Below are positions 19,060-21,052 of a DNA stretch of 33,800 nt, piece by piece. Both the position numbers and the translations under genes were made by a program. The DNA comes from Candidatus Thorarchaeota archaeon (GTDB lineage Archaea; Asgardarchaeota; Thorarchaeia; Thorarchaeales; Thorarchaeaceae): assembly GCA_046482545.1 (NCBI GenBank), contig JAWOEX010000007.1, positions 1 to 33,800 on the forward strand, read 5' to 3'. The notes below the pieces were generated by a model. That model did not search any database. It was not told the DNA's origin and saw only the letters and a list, made by a program, of their open reading frames with translations. Numbering within the stretch: position 1 is the stretch's first letter; the number at the start of each line of letters is the position of its first letter.

Positions 19060-19210
19060 CAATACCACCTACTGTATTAGCGTCTGTCTTCTACCAATGG
19101 GCTTGGGTGAAGATGACTCCAGATAGTAAGTCTTCAAGACATCCCCCCAAAATAAGCCTGATTCTTTGGCAACAGATTCAGCAAAAACATGGCACATATA
19201 CAGAAAAGGT

Positions 19211-19278
19211 AAATCTTACAAAAAGGTCAAAAAAATTCGGGTACAAAAGTGTAAAAAATCTGCAAGATTTCCTGCAAG
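19211..19278. repeat. ~68-bp element A with phased TCTTACA-like motifs; inverted copy at 20572-20638
   Basis: Reverse complement of 19241-19278 matches 20572-20609 at 29/38; 19211-19223 matches 20626-20638 at 11/13. Confidence 0.7.
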
Positions 19279-19329
19279 CCTGATTCGGACAACAAACGAG
19301 GGGAGTTCATTAAGTCAAGTACGGAACCC

Positions 19330-19670
19330 GGGTCTAGTAGGACTGGGGCGGTGAGCCACTCCCAACGGGAGAAGCGCTCAGCCCCGAAGGCTGTGAGGTG
19401 GACTCGTTCCACTAAGCAGAAGTCCCCACTCTCCAAGCAAGGGACTTCATCGAGTTCCGGAGAGTCCGCGGCTGTTCACCATGTCCGTAATGGACCTCCT
19501 CTGCGGCGATGACAAAGCCGAGGTGGGTGATCATGACCCCGCAGGGGTAAGAGCTGTGGAAACCCTCGCTGTCGCCGGGAGTGTTGACCCGGGAACACGA
19601 CAGGAGACAGAAGCCAGGACCGCGTGAGGAATCCTATTCCAGTGAATGCGGACAAAACCCCTGCTGACTC
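19330..19670 (+). ncRNA. Large structured ncRNA: HgcC/omegaRNA-like 5' module plus K-turn-containing 3' domain
   Basis: GC-rich region with no convincing ORF; TATA-like TTCATTAAG (19306-19314); terminal stem GGGUC-U-AGUAGG/CCUGCU-GACUC; several hairpins; GAAGUCCCC...GUUCAC; canonical K-turn at 19620-19651. Confidence 0.75.
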
Positions 19671-19730
19671 ACGGGCCTACGGGTACCAAGAGGGCGGCAA
19701 CGCTGGCAGGAGAAGGGTGGAACACAGAAG

Positions 19731-19759
19731 TTTCATACAGTTGCTAAAACTGTAAGAAA
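19731..19759. promoter_or_regulatory. Palindrome TTTCATACAGTT-N5-AACTGTAAGAAA (binding site or terminator)
   Basis: 11/12 inverted match; half-site resembles the TCTTACA motif of elements A and B. Confidence 0.45.
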
Positions 19760-19860
19760 TAGGTTATACAGACACATCGAATAAACAGAACAAGTACTGA
19801 GAGACATAAAACCTGACTGAAGAATGGAATATTGTCGTTTATACTTGCCACTCTACAAAT

Positions 19861-20235
19861 TCAGCGAACCTCATTGCGTTTCATACTTGCAACAACGGCA
19901 ATAGCAGCGATTGGGATTCCGATTGCCAGTAAAACGACCGCCAGGATTGCAAGTAATCTTCGGTTTGTAGGGGTTGTATGTGTCGTGTAGTTTGTACTCC
20001 ACAGCCTTGAGACACTCTGAGATGTGTTCTCCCTAGACCATACCCCTAGAGAATTCTAAGCATAGAACCTAATATCCCAGATTACCTTACTGTTGTTGCA
20101 GAGTGTATAGTTGATTGGATCTGATTCATAGACATTGCCCTCTTCATCTTCCCTATGCATACTCATACTCACATTGCGCCAGACACCCTCGGATCGATTG
20201 CTGTAGCTGCCAATCACCGTTATTACTCCGGCTGA
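19861..20235 (-). pseudogene. 3' fragment of a cell-surface protein gene with an in-frame TAG
   Basis: ...AGVITVIGSYSNRSEGVWRNVSM...WDIRFYA*NSLGVWS...TTHTTPT-NRRLLAILAVVLLAIGIPIAAIAVVASMKRNEVR*: Thr-rich linker, C-terminal TM anchor, basic tail; TAG at 20056-20058. Confidence 0.7.
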
Positions 20236-20435
20236 GCATCTACGGTGTCGGCCACCTGATTGAGAGCAGGCAGCTCTATGATAGTGACACCAAGAAGTTG
20301 CATTCGACGTATATCATCTTGAACCGGGTCAAGGACTTTTCTACTCGGGCTGACCTCTCGGAGTTCTCGCTGTTTGCAGAGAAGCTCAAAGAGAACAAGG
20401 AGCGGAAGAAGACGAAGCAGTCCTCGAACAGCTGA
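20230..20435 (+). pseudogene. Probable 5'-truncated gene fragment of unknown family
   Basis: Protein-like SIYGVGHLIESRQLYDSDTKKLHSTYIILNRVKDF...KQSSNS* with no credible start; begins where the opposite-strand fragment begins. Confidence 0.35.
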
Positions 20436-20571
20436 CCGGGGGCAGGTGTTAAGGCTGTAGATTTGTTATGCTCGTGACACTGTCTACACTCCCAATATGG
20501 GTGGTTGGATTCCTGCCATACGGGTAGGATATCGACATGATGCATACATGATGGTCTGTCTCCTACACGAA

Positions 20572-20638
20572 CTAGCAGGAAATTTTACAGAAATCTTACA
20601 CTTCTATGCGCCGATTCATTTAGGATTCTGTAAGAATT
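20572..20638. repeat. Element B, inverted copy of element A
   Basis: GCAGGAAATTTTACAGAAATCTTACACTT...TTCTGTAAGAATT; see element A. Confidence 0.7.
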
Positions 20639-20715
20639 CTAATACTCTGGATTGATGGAGAAGATATCAGTAAACAAAACACCAGAAACACAGCCACCAA
20701 CCCTCTTGAGTTCAT
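20620..20715 (-). pseudogene. Orphan signal-peptide N-terminus truncated by element B
   Basis: MNSRGLVAVFLVFCLLISSPSIQSI, then runs into element B and stops (31 aa); GAGG upstream. Confidence 0.5.
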
Positions 20716-21052
20716 TCTCAGCTTTCCTCTTGGCTACTCCCACCAAATAGCTATTGAAAATCCGCTTTTGAAGACATTAACCGGGTTAGGTGCTACGTAT
20801 CCGACCAGCCCGATAGCGGAGGCATGTCCTTTTTTGACAGTAAGGAGCATAACCTCAGTACTATCCATTTCACCAAACCAGAGAACACCGTTTCGACTCT
20901 ACGTACGCCCTACGAGCAGGGGATGCCTCTTGCACTCAATCGTGAACTGCTGACATAGAATCCGCTGATTGATATTAAATACGAGAGAGGGTTGGACGAA
21001 ATAACACGGGCAGTGTTGGATAATATAGAGCATGAGGAATGATTGGTAAAAG

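What the first reader, a model, noticed from the sequence alone, without database searches (positions are those of the whole stretch)
19300..19690. Orphan ~340-nt structured RNA: omegaRNA/HgcC-like scaffold joined to a K-turn domain, no tnpB
Seen: a GC-rich stretch with no convincing ORF, starting about 24 nt after the start of a TATA-like box. Its ends pair (19330-19341 with 19660-19670), closing one unit. The 5' module has a long hairpin (GGGGC/GCCCC, UGAGC/GCUCA, CUCCC/GGGAG), a hairpin whose internal loop GUGAG (19393-19397) can pseudoknot with UUCAC (19475-19479), and GAAGUCCCC-[ACUCUCC/GGAGAGU]-GCUGUUCAC. The 3' ~190 nt carry a possible K-loop (CGAUGA..CCGA) and a canonical K-turn (CCGCGU-GA-GGAAU/AUUCC-AGU-GA-AUGCGG). 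Established: IS200/IS605 TnpB omegaRNAs end in a GAA-hairpin-(U)UCAC/UCAA motif with a 3' pseudoknot followed by a short guide, and L7Ae binds K-turns. From memory, not a search, the 5' module resembles Rfam HgcC (RF00062, function unknown). Inference: a domesticated omegaRNA-like scaffold whose guide position is occupied by a large L7Ae-binding domain, i.e. an uncharacterised archaeal RNP acting in trans. Best candidate for an undescribed system in this window.
Basis: partly seen in the sequence, partly recalled or inferred. Interest (0 to 1): 0.85.

Follow-up and report, generated by a model that had tools for sequence, protein, structure and literature searches.

The report
Guide-RNA-only mini-transposon of Asgard archaea
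The supposed orphan RNA is the roughly 430-nt guide-RNA scaffold of a known but untested Asgard-archaeal transposon (a Cas1-like enzyme plus the RNA-guided nuclease TnpB), carried here by one of about 34 protein-less 560-bp mini-copies whose ends and target site give a ready substrate for testing whether the Cas1-like enzyme is a transposase.

Summary
Not an orphan. The stretch is the inside of a 562-bp protein-less mobile element (19205-19766, TACAGA on both sides); this Thorarchaeota-type genome holds 34 near-full copies and about 70 fragments, and the orthologous locus of two congeners lacks it. Its RNA part (about 19336-19767) is the decayed 3' end of tnpB plus the right end of larger elements that pair tnpB head-to-head with a 1400-2000 aa Cas1/Cas4-like/RecA-like protein (Asgard aCas1-TnpB, PMC10691335, where the RNA was left undefined). 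Eight helices covary, also among tnpB-less copies; the K-turn is real. The proposed terminal stem, pseudoknot, 340-nt size, guide position after UUCAC and HgcC likeness are not supported. The scaffold ends at GGUUA-U, so the guide would be flanking DNA. Mini-copies keep a TATA box at a fixed spacing and arose several times in the family. In parent elements the RNA's 3' arm covaries with a crRNA-like unit in the tnpB leader whose 11-15 nt guide copies tnpB's own promoter; this copy has lost most of that arm. The scan noted the mini-family and the leader guide before, in other windows and another genome. No activity is shown.

The parts
19199..19204 (+). Left 6-bp repeat TACAGA (family consensus TCNNGA)
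19205..19285 (+). Left end of the mini-element: 9 variable bases, then TCTTACA (19214-19220) and two inverted TGTAAGA-like sites (19250-19267); shared with the left ends of the large aCas1-tnpB elements
19298..19313 (+). BRE/TATA-like promoter found only in tnpB-less copies, at fixed spacing to the RNA start motif (33 nt in 28 of 30 copies)
19336..19767 (+). About 430-nt omegaRNA scaffold (5' end inferred from promoter spacing; 3' end GGUUA-U)
   Evidence: paralogue contigs in RNA runs
19340..19591 (+). Decayed coding sequence of the TnpB C-terminal tail (stop and two frameshifts), overlapping the RNA
19575..19592 (+). K-loop-like hairpin (consensus loop GA-GUGAU-GA; GUGUU here); stem covaries, GA steps only partly kept
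19620..19651 (+). Canonical K-turn, covarying in both stems
19730..19766 (+). 3' repeat/anti-repeat-like hairpin and right end (TGTAAGA 19751-19757, GGTTA 19762-19766); this copy has the short form without the GTTCACTCA arm
19767..19772 (+). Right 6-bp repeat TACAGA
19768..19787 (+). Predicted guide (five bases of the repeat plus flanking DNA); no second-site match above 12 nt in the genome
   Evidence: inference
20226..20651 (-). Remnant of a second, larger element: 6-mer TCCAGA (20646-20651), left end, and the last 66 codons of an aCas1 gene (coding on + at 20226-20423, 76% identity)

Best explanation
A non-autonomous, RNA-only derivative of the Thorarchaeal aCas1-TnpB transposon. Parent: left end, aCas1 (reverse), promoter, leader guide unit, tnpB, large omegaRNA, right end. 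The mini-element kept both ends and the whole RNA, lost both proteins and has its own promoter. Shown: anatomy, copy number, insertion polymorphism, RNA covariation, protein folds. Inferred mechanism: (a) aCas1 made elsewhere in the genome binds the TCTTACA sites and moves the element into T-CNNGA sites (about 75% likely); (b) the promoter makes a 430-nt RNA that binds TnpB in trans, probably with L7Ae on the K-turn, and takes its guide from the DNA beyond the right end (about 75%); (c) that complex cuts the site the element has left, so that repair restores the copy, as known for IS605/IS607 TnpB; this is why protein-less copies keep a full RNA and a promoter (about 55%); (d) in parent elements the same RNA also serves as a tracrRNA for the leader unit and represses the tnpB promoter (about 70%), a role this copy has mostly lost.
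For: 103 hits, 34 near-full; sharp ends; 6-mers identical on both sides in 15/27 against 3.3 for shuffled pairs and 21/35 in three genomes; a precise empty site with one 6-mer at 94% flank identity; the window's locus is empty in two congeners. Six tnpB loci in the genome carry the same RNA at their 3' end; four are head-to-head with the giant gene, as are about 25 of 30 loci in the family. Giant protein: residues 9-240 Cas1 catalytic fold (Z 13.0, rmsd 3.6, 178 aligned; top 12 rows all Cas1 or casposase), 260-573 Cas4/RecB-like (Z 7.6), about 600-850 RecA-like (Z 10.8); E79, H174, D184 invariant where aligned. TnpB keeps D and D with the G-for-E change and an alternative E before WTS, the rearranged active site of PMC10691335. 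Covariation holds within 38 tnpB-less copies. Leader guide equals own promoter over 11 nt or more in 26/31 loci against 0.6% across loci, behind TTAAT/TTCAT; leader repeat pairs better with its own locus's 3' arm than with others (-698 against -596 +/- 16 kcal/mol). RNA-only copies with different upstream DNA group with their own genome's tnpB-linked RNA in other genera.
Against: No biochemical activity shown. Empty target sites do not carry the TTAAT-like motif seen at the promoter (0/35 have T at the matching position); homing needs a looser motif such as V-W-T (23/35), which is an after-the-fact fit. The left 6-mer follows element kinship (nearest neighbours share it 18/35 against 5.3 shuffled), which a plain Cas1-made target duplication does not predict. 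RNA-run evidence is contigs only, and for this exact copy flank and RNA have similar low depth. The Cas1 match is by fold only (Foldseek E 0.003; no Pfam or NCBIfam hit). Loci compared are kin, so shuffle tests overstate.
Confidence: 0.82

Rival explanations
1. The RNA of mini-copies is needed for transposition itself: TnpB with the CNNGA-starting guide picks or tethers the target for aCas1, so the 6-mer is inherited through the guide (RNA-assisted transposition).
For: 6-mers are strand-specific and inherited along element lineages (left 18/35, right 9/35 against 5.3 and 3.3); the guide begins inside the 6-mer; minis keep RNA and promoter in several independent origins.
Against: Left 6-mers are well kept while right ones are often degenerate (14/35 differ), which fits a 6-mer carried on the element's left end better; right flanks beyond the 6-mer show no shared sequence and no likeness to the left end (p 0.24-0.5).
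Confidence: 0.15
2. The element moves by site-specific recombination through a circular form with a carried 6-bp overlap, by an enzyme other than aCas1 or by aCas1 acting like a recombinase.
For: Inverted TGTAAGA/TCTTACA sites 9-10 bp either side of a 6-bp core; left 6-mer follows kinship; two left ends share one 6-mer head-to-head at C20:181881/181895.
Against: No tyrosine or serine recombinase family hit in this 98.9% complete genome; none in the 8.2-kb parent element.
Confidence: 0.2
3. One reading: a domesticated host RNP acting in trans with a cellular function.
For: Own promoter, conserved fold and K-turn, apparent abundance of paralogues in three metatranscriptome studies.
Against: Locus not shared with two congeners; dozens of dispersed, partly broken copies with mobile-element ends; the same fold in tnpB-linked parents; not found outside the family in 24 genomes searched, bar one 46-bp hit.
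Confidence: 0.04
4. A dead passenger: the RNA fold is simply inherited from tnpB parents and does nothing in mini-copies.
For: Many copies are truncated; no proof that this copy is transcribed; this copy has mismatches in one pseudoknot pair and the K-loop.
Against: Typical non-autonomous elements shrink to their ends; these keep 430 nt of interior, with two-sided changes within the tnpB-less set and a promoter at fixed spacing that parents lack.
Confidence: 0.12

Closest known systems
Asgard aCas1-associated TnpB elements (Cas1H-Asgard-1/2; Altae-Tran et al. 2023, PMC10691335; aCas1 from Makarova et al. 2020, not readable here)
   Same: tnpB beside a giant Cas1-like gene in Asgard archaea, flanking repeats, GTTCACTCA motif downstream of tnpB.
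   Different: That paper leaves the RNA undefined and suggests the guide lies upstream of GTTCACTCA; here that motif is an anti-repeat arm and the scaffold ends about 30 nt further on. Ends, 6-bp target, RNA-only mini-copies and the leader guide are not in its main text (supplement not held).
IS200/IS605 and IS607 TnpB omegaRNAs and their non-autonomous copies
   Same: RNA overlaps the tnpB 3' coding end and runs to the right end; guide predicted from flanking DNA.
   Different: About 430 nt with a K-turn; 6-bp repeats and subterminal inverted sites instead of HUH hairpin ends or a GG core; partner is a Cas1-fold protein, not Y1 or serine TnpA.
Pyrococcus abyssi sRkB/sRkC/sRk52 (Phok et al. 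2011, PMC3124441)
   Same: Repeated archaeal RNAs derived from the 3' end of orphan tnpB (OrfB), with own BRE/TATA and K-turns that bind L7Ae.
   Different: Smaller families, IS605/IS607 context, no Cas1 partner; no sequence relation tested.
Casposons
   Same: Cas1-fold enzyme as the only candidate integrase; short repeats at the junctions.
   Different: No PolB gene, no true terminal inverted repeats, 6 bp rather than about 15 bp, dispersed targets, carries TnpB and a guide RNA.
Long tracrRNA autorepression of Cas9 (described in PMC8730458) and crRNA-like regulators
   Same: Short guide match to own promoter, too short to cut.
   Different: Concerns the parent element's leader, with TnpB and no CRISPR array; this copy has lost most of the pairing arm.

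Membership tests
TnpB omegaRNA | Overlaps tnpB 3' coding end and extends to the element's right end | tested here: met
TnpB omegaRNA | Conserved structured scaffold | tested here: met
   two-sided changes in eight helices, 67 homologues
TnpB omegaRNA | Cognate TnpB with an intact RuvC site | tested here: met
   D, alternative E, D in five proteins; rearranged type
TnpB omegaRNA | Guide from flanking DNA with a matching TAM at the empty site | tested here: inconclusive
   boundary inferred from the leader unit; empty sites lack TTAAT
TnpB omegaRNA | Binds TnpB and directs DNA cleavage | not testable with these tools
   needs biochemistry
Asgard aCas1-TnpB elements | Giant Cas1-fold gene next to tnpB in the parent | tested here: met
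Asgard aCas1-TnpB elements | GTTCACTCA motif downstream of tnpB | tested here: met
   present in parents; lost in this mini-copy and in 27/35 minis
Asgard aCas1-TnpB elements | Placement in clade Cas1H-Asgard-1 or -2 of the published tree | not tested
   supplement not held
IS200/IS605 family | Y1 TnpA partner, no target duplication, fixed left-flank motif | tested here: not met
   variable 6-bp repeats; the only Y1 hit is an unlinked fragment on another contig
Casposons | PolB gene and terminal inverted repeats | tested here: not met
   ORF lists of parent elements show no further large gene; repeats are subterminal 7-mers
Casposons | Target duplication made by the Cas1-fold enzyme | tested here: inconclusive
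   one empty site has a single 6-mer, but the left 6-mer follows element kinship
HgcC (RF00062), RNase P, SRP, H/ACA | Match to the Rfam model | tested here: not met
   RNase P and SRP lie elsewhere in the genome
K-turn / L7Ae ligand | C stem, 3-nt bulge, tandem G.A pairs, NC stem | tested here: met
K-turn / L7Ae ligand | L7Ae binding | not testable with these tools
   precedent only (PMC3124441)

The most novel reading that the evidence does not exclude
A Cas1-driven transposon whose TnpB RNA works both as a one-piece omegaRNA and as a tracrRNA for a separate crRNA-like unit, and in which the guide helps choose the integration site for the Cas1-fold enzyme: an array-free, transposon-borne pairing of Cas1, a Cas4-like nuclease and a Cas12 ancestor that performs RNA-assisted integration, with RNA-only minis as its parasites.
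Probability: 0.15. Interest if true: 0.92.

Novelty: new variant of a known kind. Interest (0 to 1): 0.56.

Why it matters
aCas1 has been proposed as a transposase since 2020-2023 without a defined substrate. These minis supply polymorphic insertions, exact ends, a 6-bp target and a 562-bp test substrate, and they define an unusually large, K-turn-bearing guide RNA for an uncharacterised TnpB clade. The covarying leader unit shows a natural step from one-piece omegaRNA to a tracrRNA/crRNA pair, which bears on how type V CRISPR systems arose. The window's copy itself is one of many and has no sign of a host role.

Tried and rejected
Rfam at gathering and E<=10: nothing, also on six homologous loci. 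RNase P or SRP identity: both elsewhere. Tyrosine, serine and Y1 enzymes as partner: none linked. Pfam, NCBIfam and the ESM Atlas gave no name for the giant protein. Invariant helices (GGACU/AGUCC, CUGUG/CACAG, UGACC/GGUYA) are compatible but unproven; my coordinate test of the last was misplaced and only the motif counts are used. The reading-frame count was off-frame and is discarded. The first repeat/anti-repeat test (14 loci) was not significant because strict patterns dropped the variant loci; redone on 30 loci. Second-site targets for mini-copy guides: none above chance. Likeness of right flanks to left ends: none. Left ends are barely covered in RNA-run contigs, but this may reflect their divergence at the 82% cut-off. 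Makarova 2020 could not be read; no paper holds both TnpB and Thorarchaeota. No complex prediction was run.

Full report
Observation. The GC-rich stretch, the hairpins and the TATA-like box are in the sequence. No Rfam family matches, HgcC included, even at E<=10; RNase P and SRP are on other contigs. The stretch is not single-copy: a profile finds 103 hits in the 3.05-Mb genome, 34 near full length, and it is found in 24 of 36 genomes of the same family but essentially not beyond. Relatives of the linked protein come from Thorarchaeota records; the host name is inferred from these.

The element. Homology runs from about 19205 to a sharp end at 19766. TACAGA flanks it on both sides. Across copies the flanking 6-mer has the consensus TCNNGA and is identical left and right in 15/27 cases against 3.3 for shuffled pairs. 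A TCTTACA motif lies 9-10 bp inside the left end and, inverted, 9 bp inside the right end. One congener insertion has a precise empty site in this genome with a single 6-mer. The orthologous locus of two congeners has only 57-75 bp where the window has 1.86 kb. It is therefore a mobile, lineage-specific insertion, not a conserved host locus.

The parent. Six loci carry the same 430 bp directly at the 3' end of an ORF of TnpB type. The window sequence still translates into the TnpB tail across a stop and two frameshifts. TnpB has the rearranged RuvC site described in PMC10691335 and occurs in 54 of 86 family genomes. Four loci here and about 25 of 30 in the family have a 1400-2000 aa gene head-to-head with tnpB; in two of them the same left end closes the element beyond that gene. 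The protein has no family hit, but its models show a Cas1 catalytic fold (Z 13.0, rmsd 3.6, 178 residues), a Cas4/RecB-like nuclease (Z 7.6) and a RecA-like domain (Z 10.8), with invariant E79, H174, D184. This matches the aCas1-TnpB elements of Asgard archaea, where aCas1 is called the likely transposase and the RNA is left open. No tyrosine or serine recombinase was found, and the one Y1 hit is an unlinked fragment. The window also holds a remnant of a second element at 20226-20651.

The RNA. In 67 homologues, two-sided changes support GUGGA/UCCAC, GUCC/GGAC, the 19498-19523 hairpin, CUGUCG/CGACAG, the 19575-92 stem, both K-turn stems, the 19658-64/19706-12 helix and GGCG/CGCU; most hold within 38 tnpB-less copies as well. 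The counts are of sequences, not events. The K-turn is part of the scaffold in tnpB-linked parents too, so it is not a domain put into the guide slot. Minis have a TATA-like box at a fixed distance from the RNA start motif (33 nt in 28 of 30) that occurs nowhere else in the genome. RNA-only copies with other upstream DNA occur in further genera and group with their own genome's tnpB-linked RNA, so they arose several times (two rows were mislabelled there, which does not change this). Contigs from three metatranscriptome studies cover 19330-19750 with many paralogues and little of the left end; contigs cannot show ends, strand or level, and this exact copy is not shown to be expressed.

Where the guide is. 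In parents, the tnpB leader holds a short unit ending GAAACAGGTCAG, followed by 11-15 nt identical to the gene's own TATA region behind TTAAT or TTCAT (26/31 loci; 0.6% across loci). The unit's repeat is complementary to the GTTCACTC arm near the RNA's 3' end, with locus-specific compensatory changes (own-locus duplexes -698 against -596 +/- 16 kcal/mol shuffled; kin inflate this). The right end reads GAAACAGGTTA-T, the same motif in cis, which places the scaffold end at 19767 and the guide in the flank. Five of 27 parent loci lack the cis motif and would work only as tracrRNA. Most minis (27/35), this one included, have shortened the arm and would act only as one-piece guides. I found the leader unit; the scan had noted it before.

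Mechanism. Most likely aCas1 moves the mini in trans, the mini's promoter makes the RNA, TnpB binds it in trans and cuts vacated sites, favouring retention of the copy. Two facts do not fit neatly. Empty sites lack the TTAAT-like motif, so homing needs a looser TAM. The left 6-mer follows element kinship (18/35 nearest neighbours against 5.3), which points to a carried overlap or guide-assisted target choice rather than a plain duplication; left 6-mers were picked with a TCNNGA pattern, but the NN letters were free.

Comparison and verdict. It works like an omegaRNA on a non-autonomous element; it is not an IS200/IS605 member or a classical casposon. Promoter-bearing, tnpB-derived K-turn RNAs that bind L7Ae are known from Pyrococcus. 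The parent family is published; its RNA, ends, target, minis and leader guide were not found in the papers I could read. New variant of a known kind; interest 0.56.

Noticed in passing
window:20226-20651: Left end plus aCas1 tail of a second element, facing the mini; the 456 bp between them (19772-20229) and 20655-21050 are unique in the genome and absent from congeners' orthologous locus.
   Followed up: partly
G000:C38:60478-60560 (-): Stand-alone leader-like repeat unit with no tnpB, next to a tRNA; its downstream 15 nt match exactly one other site (C27:11533, -), which lacks the TTAAT-like motif.
   Followed up: partly
L046, L047, L049, L050, L054; G000:C23:124190: tnpB loci whose RNA stops after GTTCACTCA with no cis repeat or right end, several just before a tRNA gene: candidate settled, tracrRNA-only forms.
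   Followed up: partly
G000:C20:181881-181895; C41:25272; C9:359591: Copies inserted into other copies at TCNNGA sites, including two left ends joined head-to-head through one shared 6-mer.
   Followed up: no
window:21056-21166 (-): tRNA found by Rfam but not ARAGORN, with a 38-nt insertion in the variable-arm region; possible non-canonical intron.
   Followed up: no
G000 whole genome: No PF00589 tyrosine recombinase hit in a 98.9% complete genome, so no recognisable XerA.
   Followed up: no
L033:1654-3333 and relatives: TnpB open frames run about 100 codons into the RNA, giving a long low-complexity tail of variable length (545-623 aa).
   Followed up: partly
window:32733-33800: 5' part of the 16S rRNA gene.
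   Followed up: no
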